IMG/VR virus record: IMGVR_UViG_2778261217_000006
Coordinates: 1-39,933 of that record
Source of the DNA: a virus
Lineage: Duplodnaviria; Heunggongvirae; Uroviricota; Caudoviricetes
Strand: one strand, 5' to 3'
DNA: 39,933 nucleotides
In this document: positions 698 to 39,052 of the stretch, piece after piece
Layout: the number at the start of each line of letters is the position of its first letter
Numbering within the stretch: position 1 is the stretch's first letter
The notes under the pieces: model-generated
Database searches by the model: none
Told to the model about the DNA's origin: nothing
What the model saw: only the letters and a program-made list of their open reading frames with translations
Position numbers and translations under genes: made by a program

Positions 698-1060
698 GGG
701 GCTGATTCTGGATTCGACGGGATTTGCGAAACCCAAGGTGCATGCCGAGGGGCGGTTGGCCTCGTAAAAAGCCGCAAAAAATAGTCGCAAACGACGAAAA
801 CTACGCTTTAGCAGCTTAATAACCTGCTTAGAGCCCTCTCTCCCTAGCCTCCGCTCTTAGGACGGGGATCAAGAGAGGTCAAACCCAAAAGAGATCGCGT
901 GGAAGCCCTGCCTGGGGTTGAAGCGTTAAAACTTAATCAGGCTAGTTTGTTAGTGGCGTGTCCGTCCGCAGCTGGCAAGCGAATGTAAAGACTGACTAAG
1001 CATGTAGTACCGAGGATGTAGGAATTTCGGACGCGGGTTCAACTCCCGCCAGCTCCACCA
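698..1060 (+). ncRNA. ssrA: tmRNA (transfer-messenger RNA, SsrA)
   Basis: Starts GGGGCTGATTCTGGATTCGACGGG, contains the tag-reading-frame region (GCAAACGACGAAAACTACGCTTTAGCAGCTTAA) and ends ...GGTTCAACTCCCGCCAGCTCCACCA; 363 nt. Confidence 0.95.
1016..1060 (+). repeat. attL core: ssrA 3'-end copy of a 45-bp direct repeat
   Basis: Identical 45-mer ATGTAGGAATTTCGGACGCGGGTTCAACTCCCGCCAGCTCCACCA recurs at 34500..34544. Confidence 0.85.
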
Positions 1061-1183: not shown

Positions 1184-1666
1184 ATGGAAGAACTTCACTT
1201 TGTTTACATCAATGCAAATGGTCGTATCGCTGTTCACTCTATACAGAGCATCAGTTATAGCGAAAATCATATACAGGGCATTTGTAAGAACACCGATCGA
1301 ATAAAAACCTTCCGAAAAGACCGCATTCTTAAACAGTACGATTCACCAGAACAAGCCATTCAGGAATGCGCGTCATTCCTCCCCGAAAGCTACTCACATC
1401 TCACTAAGCAGTCTGGTCCGAAAAAAAATACATTCGATGTGTGTTTCACCGGATTTAAGAAAGCAGATAAAGAAAGATTGGTTGATAAGGCGAATGAACA
1501 AGGATTAACGGTAAGAACCTCTATAACCCAAAGCCTTCAGATGCTCTGTTGCGGTTACAATGCAGGCCCATCAAAAGTATCGGCAGCCAGGATGAAAGGC
1601 ACAATCATCATAGATGAGCCTGGCTTTATACATTTTCTTGAAACGGGTGAGATCCCAGATGAATAA
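1184..1666 (+). CDS. Hypothetical protein with C-terminal BRCT-like domain (prophage moron between attL and ogr)
   Basis: ATG preceded by AGAGG. C-terminal ~75 aa (FDVCFTGF...GPSKVSAARMKGTIIIDEPGFIHFLETG) follows the BRCT pattern of NAD-ligase C-termini; N-terminal ~80 aa unrecognised. Confidence 0.6.
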   Translation: MEELHFVYINANGRIAVHSIQSISYSENHIQGICKNTDRIKTFRKDRILKQYDSPEQAIQECASFLPESYSHLTKQSGPKKNTFDVCFTGFKKADKERLVDKANEQGLTVRTSITQSLQMLCCGYNAGPSKVSAARMKGTIIIDEPGFIHFLETGEIPDE

Positions 1667-7644: not shown

Positions 7645-8817
7645 TTACGCGCTGACCTGGCTGGCGAAATTCACCAGGTACTGATCGGTGATGCGCTGAC
7701 GCAGCATCAGGTTTTCAAGTGGCGGCACTGGCGTGTAGTCGTAGTCGATGGTGAGTTTTCCGGCTTTCAGCGTGTCTTTGTCGTTCACCGACTCATCCAG
7801 CCAGCAATCACCACCAATGAGATAGCCCTGACTGACCAGGCTGCGCATTTTGGCGCGGATACCCTCGATAATGTCGCGCGCCAGCGACGGGTTAAGCGGT
7901 TTATCCACCGCCCACATGTGTGCTTCTGCCATCGTGTCCATCAGCACCTGCGCCGTGCGGGTGTAGTTTTCGAAGGCAAAGAGCGGGTCATCACTCAGGC
8001 AGCGGGAACCCCAGAAGCGGAAACCGTCTTTACGCACAAGCGTGGTGACGTCGTTCTGGTTCAGCAGACCTGCATCGGTTGCCGGGTCCTGCAGATCCCA
8101 GAACACATCTGCAGAAATTCCGGTGACACCGTTCACGCCCACGTTGGACAGGCTTTTGTGCCATCCGGTCTGCTCATCAATTTTGGCGCGCAGACCAAGC
8201 GCACGGGCGGTAGCATATGCCGTTGCTTCGGCATTCAGCACCGTGTCCCAGCCAGTAAAGTCAGGCCAGATCAGCATCCCTTCGCGCTGGCTGAAGTTTT
8301 CGCGGTAAGTGATCGCCTCCTGCACTGTCTTGCAGCCATACGCTGACAGGTAAGCAAATCCACGCAGGCTTTGCGCCACGCTCAGCAACTCAGTAGCTAC
8401 CGCCTTGGTGTCGTGGCCTGGCACGCCGAGAATGCGCGGTTTAACGCCGAGCTGTGACTGGGCAGATAACAGGGCTTTCATACCTGTTTTTTTACCTTCA
8501 GCAGTCACTGCGCCGATGATATTGGTCGTGGTTTCGTCTTCCGTTTCACCCTGCGGCACACGCACAACAATGGTCACGGGTTTTGCCTGGTCAGCGATGG
8601 CATCCAGCGAACGGGCCAGAGTACCTGACTCACCCGCTTTACCGCTGGCAGTCAGCACATCAGTGATCAGCACGGGTTTATTAAGAGGAAACATTTTTGC
8701 ATCGGCATCATCGCCCGTGCAGACCATACCCACGATGGCGGTGCTCACCGTGGTAATAGATCGGGTGCCTTCGTTGACTTCAACAACGCGCACCCCGTGG
8801 TGGTAATCCTGAGCCAT
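7645..8817 (-). CDS. FI: Contractile tail sheath protein gpFI
   Basis: 390 aa, P2 FI-like. Confidence 0.9.
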
Positions 8818-8893
8818 AGTGGCGAACCTCCTGATTGGATTAGGCTTCGCCCTATGTTGAAGTGATTGTGCCTGACAAACAGCTAAGCGCAGT

Positions 8894-8911
8894 TGTGTCG
8901 TTATTCACACA
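8894..8911 (-). promoter_or_regulatory. Candidate Ogr-dependent late promoter element upstream of FI
   Basis: TGT-N12-ACA dyad (TGTGTCGTTATTCACACA) about 80 to 95 bp upstream of the FI start. Confidence 0.5.
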
Positions 8912-8959
8912 AAATAACGGTATTTGTCTGCTTGCAGGGATAATCAACATAATGCTGAT

Positions 8960-9532
8960 TCAGGGGGATTCATTGATCTTATTTGCCGGAAATTTTCTAT
9001 AAATGGTAGAAACGCCTACATCAAAAATCAGTGCAATACGCTGTCTTGATTCTCCGGCCTCGAGTAAACGCCCAATCTGTGCCCACTGTTCGGTGGTCAA
9101 CTTAGGACGGCGTCCACCTACTCTGCCTTTGGCACGAGCTGCAGCCAGCCCTGCCCTGGTACGTTCAACTATCAGTTCGCGTTCCATTTCAGCCAGGGCA
9201 CCCATGACATGAAAAAAGAAACGGCCCATTGGGGTACTGGTATCAATACTGTCAGTCAGGCTTCTGAAATTCACACCACGCTGGCGCAACTCTTCTATCA
9301 GCGTAACAAGATGCCGCATACTGCGCCCCAACCTGTCCAGCTTCCAGACAACTAGCGTGTCTCCTGCCGATAGTGTCCTGAGTAGTTTTTTCAGCCCCGG
9401 TCTGTCGGACTTAGTGCCACTGATTTTGTCCTCAAAAATCCGCTCACATCCCGCGCAGTTCAGTGCATTACGTTGCAAATCGGTGTTCTGGTCATTTGTT
9501 GACACGCGTACATAGCCAATAAGCATGATCAT
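8960..9532 (-). CDS. Serine DNA invertase (Hin/Gin/Cin/Pin family)
   Basis: N-terminal resolvase catalytic domain (GYVRVSTNDQNTDLQ, VWKLDRLGRS) and C-terminal HTH; lies immediately beside the invertible tail-fibre segment. Confidence 0.9.
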   Translation of the reverse strand: MIMLIGYVRVSTNDQNTDLQRNALNCAGCERIFEDKISGTKSDRPGLKKLLRTLSAGDTLVVWKLDRLGRSMRHLVTLIEELRQRGVNFRSLTDSIDTSTPMGRFFFHVMGALAEMERELIVERTRAGLAAARAKGRVGGRRPKLTTEQWAQIGRLLEAGESRQRIALIFDVGVSTIYRKFPANKINESP

Positions 9533-9553
9533 CCCCCTGAATAAAAACCGGAG

Positions 9554-10093
9554 ATGATGCCAGTTAGCTGTTACCTCTGCATTTTCTTAAACGTTGGTTT
9601 GGGAGAAGGCTCTGCATTACCTGTTGGTGTCCCTGTTCCGTGGCCTTCAGCCACTCCGCCAACAGGCTGGCTGAAATGCAATGGTGCAGCTTTTTCTGCT
9701 GAAGAATACCCGGAACTGGCAAAAGTTTACCCGACAAATAAATTGCCTGATTTACGTGGTGAGTTTATTCGTGGCTGGGATGACGGGCGGGGGATTGATA
9801 CAGGTCGCTCTATTTTAAGTATTCAGGGATATGCAACGGAGGATCATGCTCATGGATTACCGTCAAGATCCACGATTGTGACTGATGCAACTATTAATTT
9901 CTATTTTGATGAAAGCTGGGTAAATAGTGGCACTGACATTATCAAAAGAGGAAACACAAACGATGCCGGATTACCAGCACCGGATTATGGAACCTTTAAA
10001 ACATATAAACAATCAGTGGCTGGTTTAGGTGCCGCAGCCTCAGAAACGCGTCCGCGTAATATTGCATTTAACTATATCGTGAGGGCAGCCTGA
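9554..10093 (+). CDS. Alternative tail-fibre C-terminal variable exon (silent in this orientation)
   Basis: Begins GLGEG..VPVPWPS.TPP.GWL.CNG..F....YPEL, a tail-collar-type fibre tip; shares the GLGEG junction with H at the crossover site; the true N-terminus would be supplied by H after inversion. Confidence 0.6.
   Translation: MMPVSCYLCIFLNVGLGEGSALPVGVPVPWPSATPPTGWLKCNGAAFSAEEYPELAKVYPTNKLPDLRGEFIRGWDDGRGIDTGRSILSIQGYATEDHAHGLPSRSTIVTDATINFYFDESWVNSGTDIIKRGNTNDAGLPAPDYGTFKTYKQSVAGLGAAASETRPRNIAFNYIVRAA
9582..9607. repeat. Left hix/gix-like 26-bp inversion crossover site
   Basis: TTTTCTTAAACG TT GGTTTGGGAGAA; the 16-bp core 9594..9609 is a perfect inverted repeat of 11407..11422. Confidence 0.65.
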
Positions 10094-10695
10094 TGCATAA
10101 AGCAATATTAAATAGTGAGCTCATTGCAACAAAGGCAGGGGATGTTACCGTTTATAACTATGATGGTGAAACACGGGAATATATTTCCACTTCAAATGAA
10201 TATCTTGCCGTTGGTGTCGGCATTCCGGCATGTTCCTGTTTAGATGCCCCTGGCACACATAAGGCTGGTTATGCAATCTGCCGTTCTGCAGATTTTAACT
10301 CATGGGAATATGTGCCAGACCATCGCGGTGAAACGGTCTATAGCACCGAAACAGGAGAATCAAAAGAAATCACCGCTCCGGGTGATTACCCTGAAAATAC
10401 AACCACTATCGCCCTATTAACGCCATATGATAAATGGGATGGTGAGAAATGGGTGACGGATATCGAGGCACAGCATAGCGCCGCAGTAGATGCAGCAGAA
10501 GCACAGCACCAGTCGCTGATTGATACTGCAATGGCTTCCATTAGTCTGATTCAACTGAAATTGCAGGCCGGGAGGAAGCTGACGCAGACAGAAACCACCC
10601 GACTAAACGCTGTGCTGGATTACATTGACGCGGTGACGGCAACGGATACCAGCACCGCGCCGGATGTCATCTGGCCTGAACTGCCGGAGGCGTAG
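10093..10695 (+). CDS. Tail fibre assembly protein, alternative orientation (Tfa')
   Basis: 200 aa with C-terminal ...DTSTAPDVIWPELPEA typical of Mu U / P2 G chaperones. Confidence 0.7.
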   Translation: MHKAILNSELIATKAGDVTVYNYDGETREYISTSNEYLAVGVGIPACSCLDAPGTHKAGYAICRSADFNSWEYVPDHRGETVYSTETGESKEITAPGDYPENTTTIALLTPYDKWDGEKWVTDIEAQHSAAVDAAEAQHQSLIDTAMASISLIQLKLQAGRKLTQTETTRLNAVLDYIDAVTATDTSTAPDVIWPELPEA

Positions 10696-11080
10696 GCCAT
10701 TCAATATCTGGTGCACTGGATGTATCAACCAGTTCCAGTGCTTCCAGATAATCCAGCCACAAATTATATTGTTTCAGCTCATCTTCTTTAAGTCTTCCCA
10801 ATGCAGCCTTACCCTGCCACTGTCTGCTATTGATAAAATCAGTTGCATCAGAGATAAGCATCTGCTTTTGAAAGTTCGCATCTGCGACTTCATCATCATG
10901 AGTACGGATAACCTCTTTAATAGAAGGAGGAAAAACAGAAAAATCGATCACGCCTCCTTCAGCTTGAGATTTTAATAATGACTGCCAGTGTTCTGCCGTT
11001 ATTTCTTTAGAATCTGGCGGAATGATGCCACAGCCATCCATAAAAAAACCAACGGTATTTAAGCAACAGTATATTTTCAT
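10667..11080 (-). CDS. Tail fibre assembly protein, expressed orientation (Tfa)
   Basis: C-terminal ...LVDTSSAPDIEWPTPPA; start set at the ATG just after the H stop (the track ORF runs further upstream to 11299 in a frame overlapping H). Confidence 0.65.
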   Translation of the reverse strand: MKIYCCLNTVGFFMDGCGIIPPDSKEITAEHWQSLLKSQAEGGVIDFSVFPPSIKEVIRTHDDEVADANFQKQMLISDATDFINSRQWQGKAALGRLKEDELKQYNLWLDYLEALELVDTSSAPDIEWPTPPAVQAR

Positions 11081-11081
11081 C

Positions 11082-12470
11082 TTAATACCCAATAGCAATC
11101 CAGTTATAGTAATAACTACCCGTTTGAGCTGCGCACCGTAATAAAAACGAAGTGGTTGTATATCCCCCCGTTGCCACTGCATTGATAGGTGCGCTGACAT
11201 TGTCATAATTTGCAACAACGGCAACACAGGCATTATTAAACGCAACCGGGAATACAACTGTATTTCCATCCCCCCCAGAGGCAGATGCTTTTGCGGCATT
11301 CCACCCCCACTGAATGATTACTGATTGCTCAATACCACCAATCATAACCGGTATAGCTATGAAACCGGTGCGTCCTAATGTAGCCGTTGCTGCATTGAGT
11401 TTTGCTCCTTCTCCCAAACCAAGGTATGTGAGAAGACCAGCTACATCCTTTCCACTCAAATTGGTAAGCGTATTGTCCAGCGGTTGTTTACCTGCCAGCG
11501 CATTAAGCATTGTCGTGGCAAAGTTCGGATCATTCCCCAGTGCCGCCGCCAGTTCGTTCAGTGTATCCAGTGCAGCAGGTGCAGAACCCACCATTCCTGC
11601 AATCGCCGATTTCACAAAAGCCGTAGTGGCAATCTGTGTATTGTTGACCGACTGCGCCGCCGTGGGGGCTGTTGGCGTTCCGGTGAGTGCCGGACTCGAC
11701 AACGGTGCTTTTAGTGCCAGCGCATTGTTAATGGTGGTACTGAAATTCGGATCATTGTTAATGGCTGCGGCTATTTCTTTCAGCGTGTCCAGCGTGGCTG
11801 GCGCACCATTAATAAGGGCCGTCAGTGCCGCCTGTACAAACGCAGTGGTCGCAACCTGCGTGGTATTATTCCCCGCCGCTGGCGTTGGCGCTTTGGGGGT
11901 TCCGGTAAATGTCGGGCTGGCTTTTGGCGCGTACTGTGAATGCGGGTCCGGCGCGGCAAGATGTTTTGCCATCTGATCATCCGCGTACACCTTCAGCTCC
12001 AGTGCCTTGTCATCCACATACTTGCGGGTTGCCAGCACTACAGCAGGGTCGATTTTCAGGGTGATATTGTCCGTGCTGCTGGTAATCAGCACCATGCGCA
12101 CGGTCTGAGTGCGCCCGCTACCTTCAGCCAGTTGCGGCTTATAGCTTTCCGGGCAGTTGCCCACGGCAATCAATGCCCCGGACTCATCAAACAAGCCCAC
12201 TTCACGTATCCACCAACCGCCCTCGTTTTCAGGGATCACCTGTTCGGCAATAATCTGGCTGCTGTTCTGCGGGTCGATATAAAGCATATTCAGCGCAGCC
12301 CGGCGTTTCTCATTTACCAGTGCCGTCTGCTTTGCGTCCGGCGTTGGCAATACTCCACCGCCATCGCCCACCGCCATATGGGTAATTTTTAGCGGCACAC
12401 CGAGCGCGGCGGCGCTGGCAAGTTTCGCCGCGCCAATATCCGTCAGCAGGGTATAAAATTTTGTGCTCAT
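11082..12470 (-). CDS. H: Tail fibre protein gpH (constant N-terminus plus currently selected variable C-terminus)
   Basis: 462 aa with internal tandem ~55-aa repeats and a variable C-terminus; the right crossover site lies inside it at 11409..11434. Confidence 0.85.
   Translation of the reverse strand: MSTKFYTLLTDIGAAKLASAAALGVPLKITHMAVGDGGGVLPTPDAKQTALVNEKRRAALNMLYIDPQNSSQIIAEQVIPENEGGWWIREVGLFDESGALIAVGNCPESYKPQLAEGSGRTQTVRMVLITSSTDNITLKIDPAVVLATRKYVDDKALELKVYADDQMAKHLAAPDPHSQYAPKASPTFTGTPKAPTPAAGNNTTQVATTAFVQAALTALINGAPATLDTLKEIAAAINNDPNFSTTINNALALKAPLSSPALTGTPTAPTAAQSVNNTQIATTAFVKSAIAGMVGSAPAALDTLNELAAALGNDPNFATTMLNALAGKQPLDNTLTNLSGKDVAGLLTYLGLGEGAKLNAATATLGRTGFIAIPVMIGGIEQSVIIQWGWNAAKASASGGDGNTVVFPVAFNNACVAVVANYDNVSAPINAVATGGYTTTSFLLRCAAQTGSYYYNWIAIGY
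11409..11434. repeat. Right hix/gix-like 26-bp inversion crossover site (inside H)
   Basis: Reverse complement reads TTCTCACATACC TT GGTTTGGGAGAA; core is the inverted repeat of the left site. Confidence 0.65.
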
Positions 12471-13072
12471 GGATTCACTCTCATTGTGTCAATAACATGG
12501 ACCGCCCCGCCTTCATGCGCGGTGCCACCGGAAATAATCGTTTCGTTGATATAGGGATAGATCGTGATTTCTTCGCCAAGATAGCTGGCGGCTCCCAGCC
12601 AATGCGGGCCGCTGGTCTGCAGATTGATGGACATGCCGATCATGTGGCGGCTACATGGTTTGGCATCGCTTATCAGTCGCTCAAGTTCCAGATAGGTATC
12701 TTCAGTGATGCCCTGGTCCTGCACGCCGATATCCAGGCGAAACGTACCCGGTGTTTCTCCGGTCTGCCACCACTCAATAATGCGGATCAGGAATCCGAAC
12801 GGTTCCACCACCCGCCGCACGGCACTGGTGGTTCCTTTATGCTGATGAATATAAAAAGCATCCTTCACTACCTGGCGTTTGACGCTTTCTGTCCAGCCCT
12901 CGTCCCAGCGATCCACAGAGAACGCCCAGGCGAGATAAGGCAGGAAGCTGACCGGACAGGTAGCCGGATTCCACAAGTCACGCAGCGGCACCTGCAAATC
13001 AGAAATCCCGCTACAGGTTTGCGCCAGTCGGCGCTCCAGTGAAGTTGAACCCGGTGGCAGCAGACTATTCAT
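12467..13072 (-). CDS. I: Baseplate protein gpI
   Basis: 201 aa; position between J and H as in P2. Confidence 0.8.
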   Translation of the reverse strand: MNSLLPPGSTSLERRLAQTCSGISDLQVPLRDLWNPATCPVSFLPYLAWAFSVDRWDEGWTESVKRQVVKDAFYIHQHKGTTSAVRRVVEPFGFLIRIIEWWQTGETPGTFRLDIGVQDQGITEDTYLELERLISDAKPCSRHMIGMSINLQTSGPHWLGAASYLGEEITIYPYINETIISGGTAHEGGAVHVIDTMRVNP

Positions 13073-22679: not shown

Positions 22680-23716
22680 TGGGAAAGAGTAAGAAAAACC
22701 GCGCTGCGGCGACGAATCAGCTCAAGCATAAAAGCCAAACTTTAGCCGAAGCATTCAGCTTTGGCGATCCCGTTCCTGTTCTGGACCGCCGTGAACTGCT
22801 GGACTATGTGGAATGCGTACAGATGGATCGCTGGTATGAGCCGCCCGTCAGCTTTGACGGACTGGCACGAACCTTCCGCGCCGCCGTGCATCACAGCTCA
22901 CCAATTGCGGTGAAATGCAACATTCTGACCAGTACCTACATCCCTCACCCGCTGCTCAGCCAGCAGGCTTTTTCACGTTTTGTGCAGGACTATCTGGTAT
23001 TTGGTAACGCCTACCTGGAGAAACGCACGAACCGCTTCGGTGAAGTTATCGCCCTTGAGCCTGCTCTGGCAAAATACACCCGACGCGGGTTAGACCTGGA
23101 TACCTACTGGTTTGTGCAATACGGTATGACAACCCAGCCGTATCAGTTCACGAAAGGCAGCATTTTTCATCTGATGGAACCTGACATCAACCAGGAGATC
23201 TACGGCCTACCAGGTTATCTTTCTGCCATTCCGTCAGCCCTGCTCAACGAGTCCGCCACGCTGTTCCGCCGGAAGTATTACATTAACGGCAGCCATGCAG
23301 GCTTCATCATGTACATGACCGATGCCGCGCAGAACCAGGAGGATGTGAACAACCTCCGCAATGCGATGAAAAGCGCCAAAGGCCCTGGCAACTTCCGCAA
23401 CCTGTTTATGTACTCGCCTAACGGCAAAAAGGACGGACTTCAGATTATCCCGTTGTCAGAAGTCGCAGCGAAGGATGAGTTTCTGAATATCAAGAACGTG
23501 AGCCGTGATGACATGATGGCTGCGCACCGCGTGCCGCCGCAAATGATGGGGATTATGCCTAATAATGTCGGGGGATTTGGTGATGTGGAAAAGGCCAGCA
23601 AAGTCTTTGTCCGAAACGAGCTAATTCCGCTACAGAAGCGGCTGCAAGAACTTAACCAATGGGTTGGTGAAGAGGTAGCTCGCTTTGAATCATATTGTCT
23701 AGAACCAAGGGAATAA
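22676..23716 (+). CDS. Q: Portal protein gpQ
   Basis: 346 aa, P2 Q-like; overlaps P by 4 nt. Confidence 0.9.
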   Translation: MMGKSKKNRAAATNQLKHKSQTLAEAFSFGDPVPVLDRRELLDYVECVQMDRWYEPPVSFDGLARTFRAAVHHSSPIAVKCNILTSTYIPHPLLSQQAFSRFVQDYLVFGNAYLEKRTNRFGEVIALEPALAKYTRRGLDLDTYWFVQYGMTTQPYQFTKGSIFHLMEPDINQEIYGLPGYLSAIPSALLNESATLFRRKYYINGSHAGFIMYMTDAAQNQEDVNNLRNAMKSAKGPGNFRNLFMYSPNGKKDGLQIIPLSEVAAKDEFLNIKNVSRDDMMAAHRVPPQMMGIMPNNVGGFGDVEKASKVFVRNELIPLQKRLQELNQWVGEEVARFESYCLEPRE

Positions 23717-23719
23717 ATG

Positions 23720-23755
23720 TACTGTTTGTTCAAATTGAACACACAGTACTTTTTA
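23720..23755 (+). terminator. Hairpin with T-run after Q (likely terminator between the convergent Q and cargo operon)
   Basis: GTACTGTTTGTTCAA-A-TTGAACACACAGTAC followed by TTTTT. Confidence 0.4.
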
Positions 23756-23760
23756 ATATA

Positions 23761-24600
23761 TTAGATGGCTGGGTTGATGTAATCACCCACGTCATCACCT
23801 TGTAGACTAATGTACTCAACCCGCCACTGGTCCATTCGCCGTAACGCATACAGACTGAATTCAACGTCAGGAACTGCGTTACAAGACATAAGCGCAATGA
23901 GTTCACTTTCAGACGCATCACCATGGTACGTTACAAAGAACTCTTCAATTTGTGTTGCCGCCTGCTCTGCCTCTGCTCTTGCATCCGGCCCACCATCTAT
24001 AGAATCATAGACAAGATGAATATTCAGTTCGTAAGGTACACCTTCCTCTAAATCATTGAAACGATCTTCGCCTAAATCAAAGAATACACCTATCAAATAG
24101 ACTGAATGTTTGCTAATTATCTTTGCGAGTTCTTTTTCGAATCTAAATTTCTTTGTGTCGAAAGCTCTTAGCCTACTCTCAAAAACATCAGGAAAGGCAG
24201 GTCGCCCATAGCGGGCAGCAAGCCATTGTTTTAAACCTTGCTTTTCCTCAGGGGATATTTGGCAAGTAGGGTCACATCCCACACACGTGAAACGTTCTTT
24301 ATCAATACGAAATTTGTTGTCATGTCTTAGTTCAATTGCATTTTGATTCGCGTCACGCGCTTGCTCTAAATGCAAATGCAGAACTCTGGGATGTTTAGCA
24401 CGTGCATAATTGCTGGCCCCCTTAATGAGAGGGCCAGCAATAAGCTCAACGCTGGGTTCAGAAGAGCTTTGCAAGTCACAATCATGACTGATCACGACAA
24501 CTTTAACGCCTATTTCCTCTTCGGTAAGAATACCCAAAGAAACTGCATCCTCATGCCTAAGAACCTGGCCTTGGCGCCATGCTGTAGCAATATCAACCAT
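23761..24600 (-). CDS. Hypothetical protein, cargo operon gene 3 (279 aa)
   Basis: ATG with AAGGAG upstream; 10 bp after the gene 2 stop; no family I can recognise (Cys cluster FTCVGCDPTC, acidic C-terminus). Confidence 0.7.
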   Translation of the reverse strand: MVDIATAWRQGQVLRHEDAVSLGILTEEEIGVKVVVISHDCDLQSSSEPSVELIAGPLIKGASNYARAKHPRVLHLHLEQARDANQNAIELRHDNKFRIDKERFTCVGCDPTCQISPEEKQGLKQWLAARYGRPAFPDVFESRLRAFDTKKFRFEKELAKIISKHSVYLIGVFFDLGEDRFNDLEEGVPYELNIHLVYDSIDGGPDARAEAEQAATQIEEFFVTYHGDASESELIALMSCNAVPDVEFSLYALRRMDQWRVEYISLQGDDVGDYINPAI

Positions 24601-24610
24601 AAATGACTAT

Positions 24611-25252
24611 CTACTCCTTCATTCCTGAACCAGGTATAGAAACAGACGACATCCACCCGTCAGTTGGCGTGCTTTTGCTCCCAGTTAAATTCGCTTTTAC
24701 ACCTGCAATTTTAAGCTGGCGAGCTTCATCGATTAAGAGATTCACAGACGACTTCCAGTCATCGCCTCGCTTAATCAAATCAATAATAGATAAGCCGTCA
24801 AACGCTTTCATTTTTGACATCAACTTAGCATTTTCTACTCCTGCTTTGTTAAAGCGATCGGCTAATCTACTGAGTTCAATGATGTAACCAGCTTTCCCAA
24901 TATCATCAGGCTGACTGTCACCGGATAACCATTTGTATAATGCTTGCCTAGTAATACCCAAATCTTTAGCCAGTTCTGACATTGATGGAGAAAGAGTATC
25001 CCTAACATTACTTAAATGTTCTGAAATTGTCCTGATATCAACAGGGTCATTATCTGTATCCCCATGATTTTCAAGTTTAGATAACCCAAAATGGACTTTA
25101 GGTTGTACAAAACCACGCCACTGGTTTACATCCTTCACAGAATAGCTCGCTCCTGTTCCACTCAGGAACATAGAGGTTGCAACAAATAACGCTCCAGCAA
25201 TAGGAGCTAAACCAGGAGTCCCATAGCAACTACCAGTCATGGATTGACGCAT
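24611..25252 (-). CDS. Hypothetical protein with central XRE-type helix-turn-helix, cargo operon gene 2 (213 aa)
   Basis: Start set at the ATG preceded by GGGGAGGTG (the track ORF begins at a GTG at 25279); HTH MSELAKDLGITRQALYKWLSG; hydrophobic Gly-rich N-terminal segment. Confidence 0.7.
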   Translation of the reverse strand: MRQSMTGSCYGTPGLAPIAGALFVATSMFLSGTGASYSVKDVNQWRGFVQPKVHFGLSKLENHGDTDNDPVDIRTISEHLSNVRDTLSPSMSELAKDLGITRQALYKWLSGDSQPDDIGKAGYIIELSRLADRFNKAGVENAKLMSKMKAFDGLSIIDLIKRGDDWKSSVNLLIDEARQLKIAGVKANLTGSKSTPTDGWMSSVSIPGSGMKE

Positions 25253-25269
25253 ATTACACCTCCCCGGTG

Positions 25270-26076
25270 TTATACCCACCTATTAATGGCATGTTGGGAT
25301 ACCATTTTATTAAAGCTTTCCTTTACAACACCATGTAGTGAATTGAACTGTTGCTCAATTGAATCTATTTCTGGCGGCATGTTTCCTTCAACATAATGGT
25401 CTGTATCAATAATTCCATGCCAAAGAGCCTTGTCGCTCCTGAACCGCTCAAGCATTTCAACCCCAAAGGGCAAGATATCTGGAGGAAAACTCAACTGACC
25501 AAACATCTTATGCAAACGAGTTACTAAAAAGCCAGTACTTATAACAGGACCAACATTTGTTTGGAAAACCATCTCGTTAACCGATTGTATCGGAGATAAA
25601 TCCAAATCTACACCATGTAAGCCATTGCAAAGGTACTGCTCAATCTTTTCACCCTCACTAGGTATTACGGCATCCAGATACCTCAAACCAAGTCTTGTCA
25701 AAAGGGCTGGGTTAGCATGTTCTATTACGACAGACAATCCTTCCATCAATGCTTTAAAGAACGGTTCATGTTCTTTGTAATCAGTCGTCTGGAAAGTAAT
25801 AAAATCGTTACCCAAGACAAAACCTGAAGTCTTAGTGATGTCAGACATATACCACTGCTGGACCATTTCAAAAGATGGCTGAGGCGATTCACCGGGCGTA
25901 TTAACATCAAACACCATTTGCATTGCCTCTCTTCTTTCAAAGAGTGGATAGCCCCTTAAACGCAATGCTTCCTGAATGTCATCGACATACTTTTTCATCG
26001 CCTTGATAGGCGTAAACTTAACTTGCGCCAGCACATAGTATACGGGTGCATTGGACATGCGATTGCTGTCACTCAT
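25270..26076 (-). CDS. Hypothetical protein, cargo operon gene 1 (268 aa)
   Basis: ATG preceded by AGGAGG; first gene of a co-directional trio; no recognisable P2/186 core homolog. Confidence 0.75.
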   Translation of the reverse strand: MSDSNRMSNAPVYYVLAQVKFTPIKAMKKYVDDIQEALRLRGYPLFERREAMQMVFDVNTPGESPQPSFEMVQQWYMSDITKTSGFVLGNDFITFQTTDYKEHEPFFKALMEGLSVVIEHANPALLTRLGLRYLDAVIPSEGEKIEQYLCNGLHGVDLDLSPIQSVNEMVFQTNVGPVISTGFLVTRLHKMFGQLSFPPDILPFGVEMLERFRSDKALWHGIIDTDHYVEGNMPPEIDSIEQQFNSLHGVVKESFNKMVSQHAINRWV

Positions 26077-26211
26077 GTCGCCCTCCTAATTTTAAAATCC
26101 ATCAATAACGTTCTTTTCAATATAGTTTACATCTTGGTTGACACATTAACCATAACAAAGTTCCATCAAAACATCTTTTGATAACTTTATATTTAAACTA
26201 CCGGGCGCGCG

Positions 26212-34499: not shown

Positions 34500-34544
34500 A
34501 TGTAGGAATTTCGGACGCGGGTTCAACTCCCGCCAGCTCCACCA
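34500..34544 (+). repeat. attR core: second copy of the 45-bp ssrA 3'-end repeat; also the left boundary of the next island
   Basis: Identical to 1016..1060. Confidence 0.85.
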
Positions 34545-34709
34545 CTTTTTAGTTGTTTGAAGTTCAATGAAGTCTACTAAGCCCACACAGCACAAGCTCT
34601 GCGGGCTTTTTTACGTCTATTGTCGTCCAGTGAGAATTGCTGAGAACTACGAGTTATGGCACCCTGAATGGGACCCATTAAGAAGGGTCCAAAAACCGAG
34701 GGTCCCAAA

Positions 34710-35939
34710 ATGGCAAAAATCGCTAAGAAGCTCACTGACACTGAAATCAAAAGCACCAAGCCAGCCGATAAAGAAATCAACTTGTTTGACGGTGATGGTC
34801 TGATTCTACGAATCGCTCCTTTGGCGAAAGGAGGCAAGAAAAATTGGTATTTCAGGTATGCAGTACCAGTGAGCAAGAAAAGAACCAAAATGAGCCTTGG
34901 GACATATCCTCACCTTACCCTTGCAAGAGCCAGAGCCTTACGTGATGAATATCTCTCCTTTCTGGCAAATGGTGTTGATCCCCAAATCCATAACAACGAT
35001 AAGGCGAAGGCATTAAAGAGTGCTACTGAGCACACTCTCCAAGCCGTAGCGCGGAAATGGTTAGATGAGAAGGTAAAGACATCAGGTATCTCACAAGACC
35101 ATGCAGCAGACATCTGGCGCAGCTTAGAGAGAAATGTCTTTCCCGGTCTGGGTAATGTCCCTATCAATGAGATCCGACCTAAGCTCTTAAAACAACACCT
35201 TGATCCTATTGAGCAACGAGGCGTATTGGAAACTCTACGCCGTATCATTTCACGTCTGAATGAAATCTTCCGGTGGGCAGCTACTGAAGAACTTATTGAG
35301 TTCAACCCGGCTGACAACCTTGGTCAAAGATTCAGTAAACCAAAAAAGCAAAATATGCCTGCCCTTCCCCCAAGCGAATTGCCAAGGTTTATGGAATCTT
35401 TGACGAATGCGTCAATCCGGTTGGAAACACGTATGCTAATTGAATGGCAATTGTTGACATGGGTTCGTCCGGGTGAAGCCGTTCGCGCAAGGTGGTCTGA
35501 TATTGATACAACCAACAGCATTTGGAACATTCCTGCTGATTTCATGAAAATGAAAAAGCTTCACAAAGTTCCTTTGAGTAAAGAAGCTTTGCGCATCCTT
35601 GAATTAATGAAATCAATAAGTGGGCATAGAGAATGGGTTTTCCCCAGCATAAAAGCGCCTCTTAATCATATGCATGAACAAACAGCCAACGCAGCTATCA
35701 TCCGAATGGGGTTCGGAGGCGAGCTTGTAGCTCACGGTATGCGTTCTATTGCACGAACAGCGGCAGAGGAGTCTGGTAAATTCAGAGCTGAAGTTCTTGA
35801 GGCAGCGCTTGCCCACTCGAAAAAAGATGAAATTATCGCAGCATACAATCGTGCAGAATATCTGATAGAGCGACAGAGTTTGATGCAATGGTGGAGTGAT
35901 TACGTTCAAGCTCAAAGATCAAATGCTCTGGTAGCCTAA
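34710..35939 (+). CDS. P4-type tyrosine integrase (IntA-like)
   Basis: Begins MAKIAKKLTDTEIKSTKPADKEINLFDGDGL..., the typical P4-integrase N-terminus; ATG at 34710 has GAGGG upstream (the track ORF starts at 34668). Confidence 0.85.
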   Translation: MAKIAKKLTDTEIKSTKPADKEINLFDGDGLILRIAPLAKGGKKNWYFRYAVPVSKKRTKMSLGTYPHLTLARARALRDEYLSFLANGVDPQIHNNDKAKALKSATEHTLQAVARKWLDEKVKTSGISQDHAADIWRSLERNVFPGLGNVPINEIRPKLLKQHLDPIEQRGVLETLRRIISRLNEIFRWAATEELIEFNPADNLGQRFSKPKKQNMPALPPSELPRFMESLTNASIRLETRMLIEWQLLTWVRPGEAVRARWSDIDTTNSIWNIPADFMKMKKLHKVPLSKEALRILELMKSISGHREWVFPSIKAPLNHMHEQTANAAIIRMGFGGELVAHGMRSIARTAAEESGKFRAEVLEAALAHSKKDEIIAAYNRAEYLIERQSLMQWWSDYVQAQRSNALVA

Positions 35940-35977
35940 GTATCAGAATAGCTAATATAATCCTGAAGGTAAAGAAA

Positions 35978-36394
35978 ATGGAAACCCTATTCAAAGTTTT
36001 TGAAAAATTTAGTTCCAGACCACTTTTTTTTATTTTTTTCGGACTCTCACTTTGTGAATTTTTTCAGAAACAATCTGTTCTGATGAATCCATCAGCAGAT
36101 AACATCGCGAAATTATTCGCAGCCATGATATTAGTTGTTTTTTTTACTTGGGGATTTGAATGGCTAATCTTCAAGTTCAATGTAAACCTTGAACCTCATG
36201 ATCAAGGCGATATTGGACCAACAATTGGAACGGCTACTTTAGCTGTATACTTAGTTTATGCCTTTCACTTTCTCAGTGAAAATCCTGAAGCATTAAATTT
36301 AAAGTTATTAACTAACTCTGGCTTTATATACAGCACAACTCTATTATTATTCTCATTAGAATGCATGAAGCTTAGAAGACTTAAACAAAAATAA
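35978..36394 (+). CDS. Small hydrophobic membrane protein (138 aa), hypothetical
   Basis: Several predicted transmembrane stretches; AT-rich; AAGG upstream of the ATG. Confidence 0.45.
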   Translation: METLFKVFEKFSSRPLFFIFFGLSLCEFFQKQSVLMNPSADNIAKLFAAMILVVFFTWGFEWLIFKFNVNLEPHDQGDIGPTIGTATLAVYLVYAFHFLSENPEALNLKLLTNSGFIYSTTLLLFSLECMKLRRLKQK

Positions 36395-36465
36395 ACAACA
36401 TCATTGTGATGATAAATATAAAATAGGCATGGCGAAAAAAAATCACCACGCCTAAAATATAATAA

Positions 36466-38214
36466 TTATGGTAGCATCATTGATACATAATCCACACCAA
36501 TCCTTGAGCTATACTGAGACGCTATAGCCTGATATCTTTCTGCATAACCAGTTCTCAGTTGAGATTTAAGTTTGAGTCGGACAGGAACATTTTGCACGTT
36601 GCCATCCATATTACTTAAAAACACGGCAGAAATAATATTTTTTTCTTCGCCATCAACTGTTGTTCCATGATTCAACACCACCATATAATCAACAACAGGA
36701 AGCGTTTTATCCCCTTCGAAAATAGAGAGATATTTTCTTTGATTTTTATGCATTACATATATATATTTCGAATGTTCAGCAAATGGCAATGCTTTACTCT
36801 GACTGGCGTTAAAAAGCTCCAGAACTTTAATGAGCCTGTGCGGACTTAATCTTACATGGTGAGGGTCGTTACCCTGAGTAGGAACCAAATCACATGCCGC
36901 AGATACACATAAATACCATTTGTTCGACTCTGTATCAAAGAAAATAGTGCCAGTAGAAATATGACCATCTTCAAAATTCTTTGAAGACAAATTCATATTT
37001 AAAGCATGATACATTTCGTGATAAGTATCATTATTTGATGGCAGATCCATTTTTGAAGAGCAATATTGGAGCAATGCAGCAACTCCGCTGTTAGCGTATT
37101 CATTTGAATAGCTATCAAAAACACTTTTGATAAATTCATCCAGCGTATTATTATTTTTAAGTCTTTGATAAAGCTCTTCTGATAAATTACCAAATACAAA
37201 GTCAATATTTCTACATCTAATATCAGGCGAGTCTGATTTTAATATCTCATTTAACCACGCAGCTTGACCGTAATGATCGTTAGCCAAATGATTTACAAAA
37301 GATAAAGCCTCAGCTTCGATTGCATTCTGAATTTCAGATTTTATTAACTGATAATAAGATGGTTTCCATTCAATGAGAGAATCATTGAGAGTTTGCCAAA
37401 TCCTATCTCCATCGTTTTCATGATCATCTTGAACCTTATGAAATAGGGAGACAAAGATATTACCACATTGAATCCATTTTACTCCGCTTTCATCACCCCG
37501 AATGACATTGCCAGATGTGTTGCTAGAAATAATTGCATTTCTAGACACAGCATATTCTGCAATCATTTTTGCAATGAAGTTTTTATCCTTTTGATCCTCC
37601 AACACAGCATCATCATGTATTAATCTTTTAATTCTTCTACAAGGCTTACTGTCTTTAATATAGGCTATTGTTTCATCTCTTGTGAGAGCTTTATTACCAT
37701 TATCATTTAAGTTCGGTAATACAACGTCTTCCCAATAACTTTGGACATCTTCATTATCGTAGTCAATGATCAAGCTGTTGATATCCAGAGCACCTTTGAG
37801 AGTCGATGATATCTGCATCCAAACCGTTTCTAAATTCTCTCTAGTATATATTACAATCATATTTAAATGATCGGAGTCTTTCAAATCTTGTAATAGTTTA
37901 AGTGTTTTATCAGGTGCATTATTATCAAGATGATAATCTACAATAATAAGATCTGATTTTCTAATCCGATCCACATCGAAATTAACAGAACCATTGTCAA
38001 CATCACAAATCATATTTTTAGATTGAAAAAAGCTCTCAAGAGTAGCGGCTCGTTTAGATGAGTCAATTTTGTTGTAGTCTAAATCAACTTCGTTATTCAA
38101 CGCCCTGATTGATTCAGAATACGTCAGAAAATCGTCATCAATCATGACAACGGAACGAATTGCATTTTCGCAGAAAGTTTTCTGGACAAGAGAATTATAA
38201 TTTGCCACTGTCAT
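36466..38214 (-). CDS. Receiver (REC)-like domain protein with large uncharacterised C-terminal domain
   Basis: N-terminus has receiver-like landmarks (VVMIDDD, DLIIVDYHL, NMIVIYT); about 440 aa C-terminal region unrecognised; start set at the ATG overlapping the kinase stop (TAATATG); the track ORF extends to 38232. Confidence 0.65.
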   Translation of the reverse strand: MTVANYNSLVQKTFCENAIRSVVMIDDDFLTYSESIRALNNEVDLDYNKIDSSKRAATLESFFQSKNMICDVDNGSVNFDVDRIRKSDLIIVDYHLDNNAPDKTLKLLQDLKDSDHLNMIVIYTRENLETVWMQISSTLKGALDINSLIIDYDNEDVQSYWEDVVLPNLNDNGNKALTRDETIAYIKDSKPCRRIKRLIHDDAVLEDQKDKNFIAKMIAEYAVSRNAIISSNTSGNVIRGDESGVKWIQCGNIFVSLFHKVQDDHENDGDRIWQTLNDSLIEWKPSYYQLIKSEIQNAIEAEALSFVNHLANDHYGQAAWLNEILKSDSPDIRCRNIDFVFGNLSEELYQRLKNNNTLDEFIKSVFDSYSNEYANSGVAALLQYCSSKMDLPSNNDTYHEMYHALNMNLSSKNFEDGHISTGTIFFDTESNKWYLCVSAACDLVPTQGNDPHHVRLSPHRLIKVLELFNASQSKALPFAEHSKYIYVMHKNQRKYLSIFEGDKTLPVVDYMVVLNHGTTVDGEEKNIISAVFLSNMDGNVQNVPVRLKLKSQLRTGYAERYQAIASQYSSRIGVDYVSMMLP

Positions 38215-38215
38215 A

Positions 38216-39052
38216 TTAGAACTCCACTCCATTGAACTGGATCACAAAATTAGCGCCATCTTTTATTAAATAGTTATCGCCTTCATCAGGTTCTGAATAC
38301 CATATTTTATGATGTGCAACAGCAAGGTTTTCTCGACATAGATACAGACCTACCCCATGTCCATTTGCTCTTTTGCTATAAAATAGTTCAAATAGTCGCG
38401 GGATATCATCGGTATCAATTGCCGGACCAGAATTTGCTATGATAACCAAAGAATTCACAAAACCAATCTTTATGAGCCTATTATTTGACAGACTGACCCA
38501 ATACATTGCATTGTTGATAATATTAGTAAAAACAGGATAGATCCTTGATGGTATATCTGTTATTGCGATTTGCTTAAACTCTTCACTAAATTCAATAGTT
38601 ATTCGTTGCCGTTCGAAACGCTCCCCAAAGAACTTCAGGACATAATCCATGATATTTTTTCCAGTTATTCTCTGCCTGGATTGATAACCTGATATTTTCA
38701 AAGGTGATAAGAAACGTATTTGTTGAGTAAGCGATCTGTGAGCATTTAACGCCAATGAAAAACCAGGGTGTTCTTTTACAGAAGTAGGAAGAGAGTTTAG
38801 TCCTCTGGTTACCATAGAATCCATTTCTTCAAGTTCATGAGATATTATCTCAACACTAATACCTAACTGTGCAAGCGCGTTTAAACTTTTAGCTTTTTCT
38901 TCAAAATATGAGCGTTCTTCTTCAGATAATGAGAATGCTGAATCTAAGTTTATACCTTCAAATAATCTATCGAGACCTTTTATTATTGATTGATATTTGA
39001 AAGTTAGGGTATCAACTGACTCAACATATAAACTATCGAGCAAATTAAACAC
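38216..39052 (-). CDS. Histidine-kinase-like protein (HisKA H-box plus HATPase_c N, G1, G2 boxes); frame is open upstream to 39226 with no start codon
   Basis: H-box ISHELEEM, N-box NIINNAMYW, G-boxes IANSGPAID and GHGVGLYL; the track start is a GTG; the frame continues upstream into the overlap with the next ORF. Confidence 0.7.
   Translation of the reverse strand: MFNLLDSLYVESVDTLTFKYQSIIKGLDRLFEGINLDSAFSLSEEERSYFEEKAKSLNALAQLGISVEIISHELEEMDSMVTRGLNSLPTSVKEHPGFSLALNAHRSLTQQIRFLSPLKISGYQSRQRITGKNIMDYVLKFFGERFERQRITIEFSEEFKQIAITDIPSRIYPVFTNIINNAMYWVSLSNNRLIKIGFVNSLVIIANSGPAIDTDDIPRLFELFYSKRANGHGVGLYLCRENLAVAHHKIWYSEPDEGDNYLIKDGANFVIQFNGVEF

What the first reader, a model, noticed from the sequence alone, without database searches (positions are those of the whole stretch)
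8960..12470. Invertible tail-fibre segment with Hin/Gin-like invertase: a host-range switch in a P2-like prophage
A perfect 16-bp inverted repeat (9594..9609 and 11407..11422) lies within 26-bp sites that fit the hix/gix pattern (TT.TC..AAAC. NN GGTTT..GA.AA). The right site falls inside gene H exactly at a GLGEG junction that is also encoded at the start of the oppositely oriented alternative fibre exon. Two convergent tail-fibre-assembly genes lie between the sites and a serine invertase gene is adjacent. In the current orientation H is joined to the minus-strand tip and Tfa; inversion would swap in the plus-strand tip and Tfa'.
Basis: partly seen in the sequence, partly recalled or inferred. 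Interest (0 to 1): 0.5.

Follow-up and report, generated by a model that had tools for sequence, protein, structure and literature searches.

The report
Pin-type invertible tail-fibre segment
This is a well-known kind of DNA flip-switch: a P2/186-like prophage of E. coli carries the same 1.8-kb invertible "P segment" as the K-12 cryptic prophage e14, so a neighbouring invertase can swap the tip of the tail fibre and its chaperone. The finding is real but ordinary.

Summary
A perfect 16-bp inverted repeat (9594-9609 / 11407-11422) lies inside two 26-bp hix/gix/cix-type sites with matching TT/AA central dinucleotides. An intact 188-aa serine invertase (84% PinE, 77% Cin, 73% Gin) lies next to the left site. 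Between the sites are two convergent cassettes, each a fibre tip plus a Tfa chaperone. In-silico inversion joins tail-fibre gene H in frame to the alternative tip (462 aa becomes 515 aa). The repeat sequence and the 1797-bp spacing are identical to the published e14 P segment of E. coli K-12, and the segment is 97.6% identical to it in DNA. Here it is grafted onto gene H of a complete 186/P2-like prophage integrated at ssrA. Related sequences hold both orientations with breakpoints exactly at the repeats. Two chicken isolates carry the same prophage and differ only by the flip; their invertase is 187/188 identical to this one. Inversion in e14 and in P2-like E. coli prophages has already been shown experimentally. 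One small open point remains. A start codon outside the segment would, after inversion, give a protein nearly identical to StfE2, recently reported to block phage T2 adsorption.

The parts
8960..9526 (-). Serine DNA invertase, 188 aa, Pin/Gin/Cin/Hin family. It is transcribed away from the segment and occupies the position between the fibre module and FI where P2 has Z/fun.
   Evidence: Resolvase 2.3e-53 and HTH_7 1.5e-15. Gin structures 3UJ3/4M6F match at E about 1e-92 over residues 1-184. Identity is 83.5% to PinE, 76.6% to Cin and 72.5% to Gin. RefSeq annotates 567-nt genes in relatives. P2 layout.
9437..9508 (.). Stretch homologous to the recombinational (Fis-dependent) enhancer, inside codons 7-30 of the invertase gene and centred about 120 bp from the left crossover.
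   Evidence: It corresponds in position to the enhancer annotated in P1 cin. It aligns without gaps at 88% to pinE, 78% to cin and 72% to gin, slightly above the gene-wide identity in each case. Fis binding was not tested.
9554..9593 (+). Short leader with ATG ATG lying outside the segment, in frame with whichever tip faces the invertase. It is homologous to the start of e14 stfE.
   Evidence: ORF 9554-10093. Leader alignment with e14. After inversion it gives a 126-aa StfE2-like ORF. No promoter was detected.
9582..9607 (.). Left (invertase-proximal) 26-bp recombination site, TTTTCTTAAACG TT GGTTTGGGAGAA, with its crossover dinucleotide at 9594-9595.
   Evidence: It differs by 1 base from the e14 pin-proximal site.
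9594..11422 (.). Invertible segment between the two central dinucleotides, with 1797 bp between the 16-bp repeats. It is the counterpart of the e14 P segment.
   Evidence: 97.6% identical over 1829 bp without gaps to K-12 e14. The repeat sequence and the 1797-bp length match PMC12529663. It is inverted at 99.3% identity in CP027462.
9596..10093 (+). Alternative fibre tip B, 165 aa, with a tail-collar domain. It is StfE-like and is not joined to H in the present orientation.
   Evidence: Collar PF07484, 4.7e-15. 162/165 identical to the e14 StfE C-terminal part.
10093..10695 (+). Tail-fibre assembly chaperone B, 200 aa, TfaE-like.
   Evidence: Caudo_TAP 7e-31. 191/200 identical to TfaE.
10667..11080 (-). 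Tail-fibre assembly chaperone A, 137 aa, TfaP-like. It is currently co-oriented with H, and its 3' end overlaps the other tfa gene by 29 nt.
   Evidence: Caudo_TAP 1.1e-19. 136/137 identical to TfaP.
11082..11420 (-). Fibre tip A, 112 aa, with a gp53-like C-terminal domain. It is currently fused to H.
   Evidence: Gp53-like_C 6.7e-15. 112/112 identical to the C-terminus of e14 StfP.
11409..11434 (.). Right 26-bp recombination site inside gene H, TTCTCCCAAACC AA GGTATGTGAGAA, with its crossover dinucleotide at 11421-11422.
11423..12470 (-). Constant part of tail-fibre gene H, about 350 aa, ending ...LLTYL before the GLGEG junction.
   Evidence: Phage_tail_fib N-terminal domain 3.3e-65. 44% identical to P2 H overall; residues 181-340 are 80% identical to the constant part of P1 S.

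Best explanation
This is a functional Pin-type, G/C/P-segment-style DNA inversion switch in the tail-fibre module of an apparently complete 186/P2-like prophage of E. coli.

Proposed mechanism:
- Invertase dimers bind the two 26-bp sites. A Fis-bound enhancer inside the 5' part of the invertase gene helps assemble a synaptic tetramer.
- The tetramer cuts both sites at the central TT/AA dinucleotide and rotates by 180 degrees, which inverts about 1.83 kb.
- Gene H is read from the late V-W-J-I-H operon, and the crossover lies inside H. Each orientation therefore fuses the same roughly 350-aa fibre shaft to one of two unrelated receptor-binding tips.
- Each orientation also places the matching Tfa chaperone directly downstream.
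- At present H carries the StfP-type, gp53-like tip followed by the TfaP-like chaperone.
- After inversion it would carry the StfE-type collar tip followed by the TfaE-like chaperone.
- A lysogen population would thus release a mixture of virions with two adsorption specificities.

Shown here: the anatomy, the in-frame junction, an intact enzyme and sites, and both orientations among relatives.

Inferred: Fis and enhancer dependence, actual flipping in this strain, and a change of host range.
For: - The sites and repeat are present and well beyond chance.
- The sites fall in the cix/pix class with a TT core, alongside Mu gix, P1 cix and e14.
- The invertase is intact, with Ser9 and wild-type M114. 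It also keeps the basic helix-B residues K46, K47 and R50, which correspond to Hin K47, R48 and K51, the residues that contact the enhancer.
- An enhancer-homologous stretch sits about 120 bp from the left site. In hin the enhancer lies about 100 bp from hix.
- In-silico inversion gives an in-frame H of 515 aa.
- The cassettes are 98-100% identical in protein to e14 StfP-C, TfaP and StfE-C, and 95.5% to TfaE.
- The repeats and the 1797-bp length are identical to the e14 P segment, which is inverted experimentally by PinE, PinQ and PinR.
- The opposite orientation is found with breakpoints at the repeats in NC_049342 and CP027462.
- GPEC1366 and GPEC1040 have flanks 100% and 99.96% identical and a 1914-bp interior that is inverted with 1 mismatch. 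Their invertase is 187/188 identical to this one.
- Inversion phase variation was measured by sequencing and PCR in e14, and by sequencing in P2-like prophages of EPEC.
- The prophage is collinear with a fully annotated relative and is bounded by 45-bp att repeats at ssrA.
Against: - No reads are available, so flipping in this very strain is unobserved.
- Fis sites were not verified beyond homology.
- No sigma-70 promoter for the invertase was picked up by the simple scan.
- The receptors of both tips are unknown, so a host-range change is an inference by analogy with Mu and P1.
- The present H-to-StfP-type-tip junction is rare: 2 of 5426 complete E. coli genomes, against 381 for the H-to-collar-tip junction. 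In one of those two genomes H is annotated as a frameshifted pseudogene. It is therefore unproven that this particular chimeric fibre assembles.
Confidence: 0.9

Rival explanations
1. The switch serves the lysogen as well as, or instead of, the virion. Inversion would place the StfP-type tip behind the leader start codon at 9554/9557 next to the invertase gene. That creates a 126-aa StfE2-like protein, which may block adsorption of T2-like phages, as reported for the e14 P segment.
For: The leader ATG lies outside the segment and is homologous to the e14 stfE start. The predicted post-inversion product is 126 aa, and its C-terminal 112 aa are identical to the in-silico K-12 StfE2. Kirigo et al. 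2025 report that inversion-generated StfE2 blocks T2 adsorption.
Against: No promoter was detected upstream of the leader. GGAG lies only 1-4 nt from the ATGs. The leader may be conserved simply because the DNA is homologous. The claim rests on a single recent study of a defective prophage. This prophage looks complete, so the classical virion role is sufficient. In the present orientation the leader ORF encodes the StfE-like form, not the StfE2-like form.
Confidence: 0.1
2. The segment is a frozen relic. The structure is inherited from an ancestor, no longer inverts in this prophage, and has no present function.
For: There are no read data for this strain. The H-to-StfP-type-tip junction is rare. 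Several relatives carry frameshifted H or tfa genes.
Against: The invertase, both sites and all four cassette ORFs are intact here. A 187/188-identical invertase accompanies a very recent flip between GPEC isolates. Other Pin-family invertases in E. coli act on the same repeats in trans.
Confidence: 0.06
3. The orientation differences between genomes arise from RecA-dependent homologous recombination between the repeats, or from assembly artefacts, and not from site-specific inversion.
For: Only assembled genomes were compared. Mixed populations can be collapsed arbitrarily by assemblers.
Against: The repeats are only 16-28 bp, which is a poor RecA substrate. The breakpoints coincide with canonical invertase sites that have matching core dinucleotides. 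An assembler choosing one orientation from a mixed population would itself imply active switching. Inversion of this same segment by Pin enzymes has been shown experimentally.
Confidence: 0.03

Closest known systems
e14 P segment and PinE of E. coli K-12 (Plasterk and van de Putte 1985, cited from the reference list of PMC4272514; Kirigo et al. 2025, PMC12529663)
   Same: The 16-bp repeats are identical and 1797 bp apart. The DNA is 97.6% identical over the whole segment. The four cassette genes are the same (StfP-C 112/112, TfaP 136/137, TfaE 191/200, StfE-C 162/165). The invertase lies outside the segment with its 5' end next to the site, and the pin-proximal sites differ by 1 base.
   Different: The host element is a complete 186/P2-like myovirus prophage at ssrA, not the defective lambdoid e14 at icd. 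The constant part is P2-type H, unrelated to the StfP N-terminus. The invertase is only 83.5% identical to PinE. The outer half of the H-side site differs.
Mu G segment with Gin, and P1 C segment with Cin
   Same: The logic is the same: the crossover lies inside the fibre gene, a constant N-terminal part joins one of two alternative C-terminal tips, and two convergent chaperone genes (U and U') lie between the sites. The sites are 26 bp, and the P1 record annotates an enhancer within the invertase gene. The invertase is 73-77% identical.
   Different: The segment is shorter (1.8 kb against 3 kb in Mu and 4.2 kb in P1). The tips are unrelated: blastp found no match between either tip and Mu S or S', or the variable part of P1 S (P1 Sv' was not in the comparison set). 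The core dinucleotide is TT as in cix and pix, against TC/GA in gix. P1 cin points towards the segment, whereas this invertase points away.
Invertible tail-fibre loci of P2-like prophages in E. coli, including EPEC E2348/69 (Goldberg et al. 2014, PMC4272514) and Escherichia phage 500465-1 (Wadgaonvirus, NC_049342)
   Same: The phage family is the same, as is the position between H and FI. In 500465-1 the flanks are 99.6-99.7% identical and the invertase 187/188 identical. The collar tip and 200-aa Tfa cassette is present there in the opposite orientation.
   Different: The partner cassette differs: 500465-1 has a 131-aa tip and a 147-aa Tfa where this window has the e14 StfP/TfaP pair. One EPEC locus has three repeats and four variants, whereas this locus has only two sites.
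Phage P2 itself (NC_001895)
   Same: The late-gene order V-W-J-I-H-(tfa)...FI-FII-E-T-U-D is shared. The H N-terminal part is 44% identical. P2 H reads YLGLQE where this H reads YLGLGEG.
   Different: P2 has a single fixed tip and a single chaperone G, with no invertase. The Z/fun gene occupies the slot where the invertase sits here.
Salmonella Hin/hix flagellar switch
   Same: The enzyme family, the 26-bp site architecture and the Fis/enhancer invertasome mechanism are the same.
   Different: Hin flips a promoter and lies inside its own segment. Here the flip exchanges coding exons and the invertase lies outside the segment.

Membership tests
DNA invertases of the small serine recombinase family (Hin/Gin/Cin/Pin) | N-terminal resolvase-type catalytic domain with the nucleophilic serine (Ser9 in Gin, Ser10 in Hin) and the D/R/R catalytic cluster | tested here: met
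   PF00239 at 2.3e-53. The YVRVSTNDQ motif has S9, and D64, R65 and R68 are present. Alignment to Gin structures gives E about 1e-92.
DNA invertases of the small serine recombinase family (Hin/Gin/Cin/Pin) | C-terminal helix-turn-helix DNA-binding domain in a protein of about 185-195 aa | tested here: met
   PF02796 HTH_7 at 1.5e-15 over residues 140-183 of the 190-aa ORF as scanned (138-181 counted from the 9526 start). The protein is 188 aa, and the Hin DNA-binding-domain structures also match.
DNA invertases of the small serine recombinase family (Hin/Gin/Cin/Pin) | Two 26-bp imperfectly palindromic sites in inverted orientation with identical central dinucleotides | tested here: met
   The sites are at 9582-9607 and 11409-11434, with cores TT and AA. 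Each scores 27.2 bits against a background maximum of 18.
DNA invertases of the small serine recombinase family (Hin/Gin/Cin/Pin) | Cis-acting recombinational enhancer with two Fis sites near one recombination site | tested here: inconclusive
   9437-9508 is homologous (72-88% identity, no gaps) to the region annotated as the enhancer in P1 cin, and is centred about 120 bp from the left site. Third-codon-position identity is higher inside the stretch than outside for pinE (17/24 against 66/116) and cin (12/24 against 48/116), but not for gin (9/24 against 48/116). Fis binding is not testable here.
DNA invertases of the small serine recombinase family (Hin/Gin/Cin/Pin) | The segment actually inverts | not testable with these tools
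   No reads are available for this strain. Indirect support comes from both orientations among near-identical relatives and from published inversion of the same segment in e14.
e14-type P segment | 16-bp repeats TTGGTTTGGGAGAAGG / CCTTCTCCCAAACCAA flanking 1797 bp | tested here: met
   Searches compared with the published values. The same repeats occur in the MG1655 locus.
e14-type P segment | Content StfP-C / TfaP / TfaE / StfE-C in convergent pairs | tested here: met
   Protein identities are 100%, 99.3%, 95.5% and 98.2%, and DNA identity is 97.6% over 1829 bp.
e14-type P segment | Residence in the lambdoid defective prophage e14 with StfP as the constant part | tested here: not met
   The constant part is P2-type H, and the element is a 186/P2-like prophage at ssrA. 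The segment is therefore the same but its carrier is different.
P2/186-like prophage (Peduoviridae) | P2-type late and early gene set and order, with an integrase and att repeats | tested here: met
   The window is collinear at about 97% with an annotated prophage in CP027462, running from ogr and D through to cII and CI. CI and Int domains are present. 45-bp direct repeats lie at 1016-1060 and 34500-34544. The closest phage record belongs to the Peduoviridae.

The most novel reading that the evidence does not exclude
The switch may be dual-purpose. It would diversify the virion tail fibre, and inversion in the lysogen would also fuse the StfP-type tip to a conserved leader start codon beside the invertase gene. 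That fusion encodes a 126-aa StfE2-like protein, which could protect the lysogen by blocking adsorption of T2-like phages. If so, an intact temperate phage would use one inversion both for host range and for recombinase-activated superinfection exclusion.
Probability: 0.08. Interest if true: 0.5.

Novelty: already known. Interest (0 to 1): 0.12.

Why it matters
The finding matters little beyond correct annotation. It shows that annotation pipelines tend to split or mislabel the H gene and the silent tip as pseudogenes or as separate 'phage tail protein' entries. It also shows that the orientation seen in an assembly is one arbitrary snapshot of a phase-variable locus. A modest further point is that the e14 P segment is a portable module. 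The same 1.8-kb cassette sits on a lambdoid relic and on a P2-like myovirus, with the mosaic joint exactly at the recombination site. This fits the long-standing view that tail-fibre tips are exchanged horizontally between unrelated phages. If the StfE2-type defence role reported in 2025 extends to intact prophages, loci like this one would be a place to test it.

Tried and rejected
- **More than two sites.** I looked for additional recombination sites, as in a Min/p15B-type or three-repeat multi-inversion system like one EPEC locus. Nothing else in the window scored above the shuffle background.
- **Promoters and terminators.** The simple scan of 8800-12700 found no more promoter-like sites than in shuffles, and none for the invertase or the leader ORF. 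A weak minus-strand terminator-like hairpin lies at 9565-9546, between the left site and the invertase start; I give it no weight.
- **First shuffle test.** My first test of the repeat was inflated by self-palindromes (21 of 300). I repeated it requiring separated arms (1 of 1000).
- **Similarity of the tips to Mu S/S' and P1 S.** There is none at blastp level. Only the H shaft matches the constant part of P1 S.
- **Orientation ratio.** I tried to estimate one from junction counts: 2, 381 and 866 genomes. The three queries sample different sets of prophages, and the last also hits e14 loci. They show only that both junction types are common and do not give a true ratio.
- **PADLOC on neighbouring cargo genes.** No credible hits.
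- **Not used.** The large protein-database, structure-prediction and metagenome tools were not needed.


Full report
**Observation.** Positions 9594-9609 read TTGGTTTGGGAGAAGG, and 11407-11422 are the perfect reverse complement, with 1797 nt between the arms. A separated 16-bp inverted repeat in this 4.5-kb region is expected about 0.002 times by chance and appeared in 1 of 1000 shuffles. An earlier test was inflated by self-palindromes and was discarded.

The repeats sit inside two 26-bp sites:
- 9582-9607, TTTTCTTAAACG TT GGTTTGGGAGAA
- 11409-11434, TTCTCCCAAACC AA GGTATGTGAGAA

The central dinucleotides match once the inverted orientation is taken into account, as inversion by a serine invertase requires. 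I built a half-site matrix from the Mu gix, P1 cix and e14 sites only. With it both sites score 27.2 bits, the next best position in the whole 39.9-kb window scores 11.3, and the maximum over 20 shuffles was 18.0. This is a simple two-site system. The inner half-site here is identical to that of e14, so the matrix is not fully independent.

**Genes.** The genes in and around the segment are as follows:
- 8960-9526 (-): a 188-aa protein with Resolvase and HTH_7 domains.
- 11082-12470 (-): tail-fibre gene H, with a P2-type N-terminal domain and a gp53-like C-terminal domain.
- 10667-11080 (-): a 137-aa Caudo_TAP chaperone directly downstream of H.
- 9596-10093 (+): a 165-aa tip with a tail-collar domain.
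- 10093-10695 (+): a 200-aa Caudo_TAP chaperone.

The two chaperone genes converge and overlap by 29 nt.

**Reading frame across the junction.** Reading H on the minus strand, the constant part ends ...LLTYL. The crossover lies in the Leu codon CTT. The next residues, GLGEG, are encoded inside the segment. The plus-strand tip begins with the same GLGEG. Exchanging DNA in silico at the central dinucleotides gives an uninterrupted H of 515 aa in place of 462 aa.

**Enzyme.** The invertase aligns end to end with the Gin crystal-structure sequences at E about 1e-92. It is 83.5% identical to PinE, 76.6% to Cin and 72.5% to Gin. It has Ser9 and D64/R65/R68. It keeps Met114, where the Gin crystal sequences carry Val; from my own knowledge that substitution is an activating, Fis-independent one. 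It also keeps the basic helix-B residues K46, K47 and R50, which correspond to the Hin residues K47, R48 and K51 that clamp the enhancer.

**Enhancer.** The P1 record annotates the Cin enhancer within codons 7-30 of cin. The homologous stretch here is 9437-9508. It is 88%, 78% and 72% identical to pinE, cin and gin respectively, without gaps, and is centred about 120 bp from the left crossover. In Salmonella the enhancer lies about 100 bp from hix. Dependence on Fis and the enhancer is thus inferred from homology and was not tested.

**What it is.** The segment is the P segment of the E. coli K-12 cryptic prophage e14. Tip A is 112/112 identical to the C-terminus of StfP. Chaperone A is 136/137 identical to TfaP, chaperone B 191/200 to TfaE, and tip B 162/165 to StfE. 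The DNA is 97.6% identical over 1829 bp with no gaps. Kirigo et al. 2025 give the e14 repeats as 5'-TTGGTTTGGGAGAAGG-3' and 5'-CCTTCTCCCAAACCAA-3' flanking a 1797-bp segment. That is the same sequence and the same length as here. The invertase-proximal sites differ by a single base.

**The carrier.** What differs from e14 is the element that carries the segment.
- The window begins with smpB and ssrA (tmRNA at 698-1060), which are 99.9% identical to E. coli.
- A 45-bp direct repeat of the ssrA 3' end (1016-1060 and 34500-34544) bounds a 33.5-kb prophage.
- That prophage is collinear at about 97% with an annotated 186/P2-like prophage in E. coli 07-4299, from ogr, D, U, T, E, FII and FI through the baseplate, lysis, head and replication genes to cII and CI.
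- CI and Int domains were confirmed here.
- The closest phage record, Escherichia phage 500465-1, is classified in the Peduoviridae.

In P2 itself the slot between the fibre genes and FI holds Z/fun, and there is one fixed tip and one chaperone. The H shaft is a mosaic. It is 44% identical to P2 H, with a 160-aa block 80% identical to the constant part of P1 S. P2 H reads YLGLQE where this H reads YLGLGEG. The mosaic joint with e14 lies exactly at the recombination site.

**Does it flip?** No reads are available for this strain, but relatives hold both orientations with breakpoints at the repeats.
- In phage 500465-1 the flanks match up to window 9608 and from 11407 onwards at 99.6-99.7%. The collar tip and 200-aa Tfa cassette lies reversed and joined to H.
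- In E. coli 07-4299 the whole interior (9594-11434) is reversed at 99.3% identity, and the in-silico inverted construct matches in one piece at 98.1%.
- E. coli strain 2547 has the orientation seen here.
- The chicken isolates GPEC1366 and GPEC1040 carry the same prophage. Their flanks are 100% and 99.96% identical, and a 1914-bp interior is inverted with a single mismatch.
- The GPEC invertase is 187/188 identical to the one here.

The literature agrees. Goldberg et al. 2014 measured coexisting orientations of e14 in MG1655 cultures by sequencing and PCR. They also found inversion phase variation by sequencing in two P2-like prophages of EPEC, one with two variants and one with four. Kirigo et al. 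quantified P-segment inversion by PinE, PinQ and PinR.

**How common is it?** Among 5426 complete E. coli genomes:
- the H-to-collar-tip junction occurs in 381;
- the invertase-side-to-collar-tip junction occurs in 866, a count that includes e14-type loci;
- the present H-to-StfP-type-tip junction occurs in only 2.

The collar cassette is therefore a common partner of P2-type H genes, and the e14 StfP/TfaP cassette is a rare one. These counts come from different sets of prophages and do not give an orientation ratio.

**Mechanism.** The best explanation (confidence 0.9) is the classical one. Invertase dimers at the two sites and a Fis-bound enhancer form an invertasome. Both sites are cut at the central dinucleotide and the subunits rotate, which inverts about 1.83 kb. 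The late V-W-J-I-H transcript then reads the constant shaft into one of two tips, followed by the matching chaperone. Induced lysogens would release two virion types. The change of host range is inferred from Mu and P1, and the receptors of these two tips are unknown.

**Rival explanations.**
- A frozen relic (0.06). This is contradicted by the intact parts and by the recent flip in isolates with a near-identical invertase.
- RecA-dependent recombination or assembly artefacts (0.03). The repeats are too short, and the breakpoints fall at canonical sites.
- An added or alternative role for the lysogen (0.10). An ATG ATG at 9554/9557 lies outside the segment, is in frame with whichever tip faces the invertase, and is homologous to the e14 stfE start. 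After inversion it would encode a 126-aa protein whose C-terminal 112 aa are identical to K-12 StfE2. StfE2 is the inversion-generated protein reported to block T2 adsorption. No promoter was detected upstream, so this remains speculative.

**Verdict.** The system is already known in all its elements: enzyme family, sites, segment, gene content, and occurrence in P2-like prophages. The only specific feature is a rare cassette combination. Interest is low.

Noticed in passing
window 1016-1060 and 34500-34544: A 45-bp perfect direct repeat of the 3' end of ssrA (tmRNA at 698-1060) marks attL and attR of the 33.5-kb prophage. The smpB-ssrA flank is 99.9% identical to E. coli.
   Followed up: yes
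window 34668-39933: Directly after attR lies a second, P4-type integrase (Arm-DNA-bind_3, Phage_int_M and Phage_integrase domains; 34668-35939). It is followed by a 138-aa ORF with no family match and, on the minus strand, a pair of genes: HEF_HK/HATPase_c (38216-39052) and Response_reg_2 (36466-38232). This looks like a second island integrated in tandem at ssrA, carrying an unusual kinase/receiver pair. PADLOC gave no hit.
   Followed up: partly
window 23761-26076: A three-gene minus-strand cargo locus lies next to the portal gene. Its products are 279 aa with no family match, 222 aa with a weak HTH_3 match, and 268 aa of the TIGR04255 family. It has no megablast match to the otherwise 97%-identical relative (gap at 23628-26204), although that relative has the same architecture (hypothetical, XRE, TIGR04255). 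This appears to be a rapidly diversifying accessory locus of unknown function, with no PADLOC hit.
   Followed up: partly
window 1184-1666: A 160-aa ORF lies between attL and the ogr-like gene. It has only weak matches: PADLOC PDC-S48 at 4e-07, and C-terminal regions of LigA and a DEDDh exonuclease. It is conserved as 'hypothetical protein' in the relative.
   Followed up: no
window 9554-9593: A start codon outside the invertible segment heads an ORF that continues into whichever tip faces the invertase. After inversion it would give a 126-aa product nearly identical to K-12 StfE2.
   Followed up: partly
window 11423-12470: The H shaft is a mosaic. It is 44% identical to P2 H overall, but residues 181-340 are 80% identical to residues 253-412 of P1 S, its repeated constant part.
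   Followed up: partly
window 9594-11434 compared with flanks, against L004 (CP027462): The invertible segment is 99.3% identical to that relative, whereas the flanking prophage DNA is about 97% identical. Identity dips to 94% just inside the H constant part, at 11500-12000. This suggests the cassette has a separate exchange history from the rest of the prophage.
   Followed up: no
L002, L003, L004 and L008 (relatives): RefSeq annotation of this locus in relatives often marks H or the silent tip as a frameshifted or partial pseudogene, or splits it into separate 'phage tail protein' genes. Part of this is probably an artefact of annotating a phase-variable split gene.
   Followed up: no
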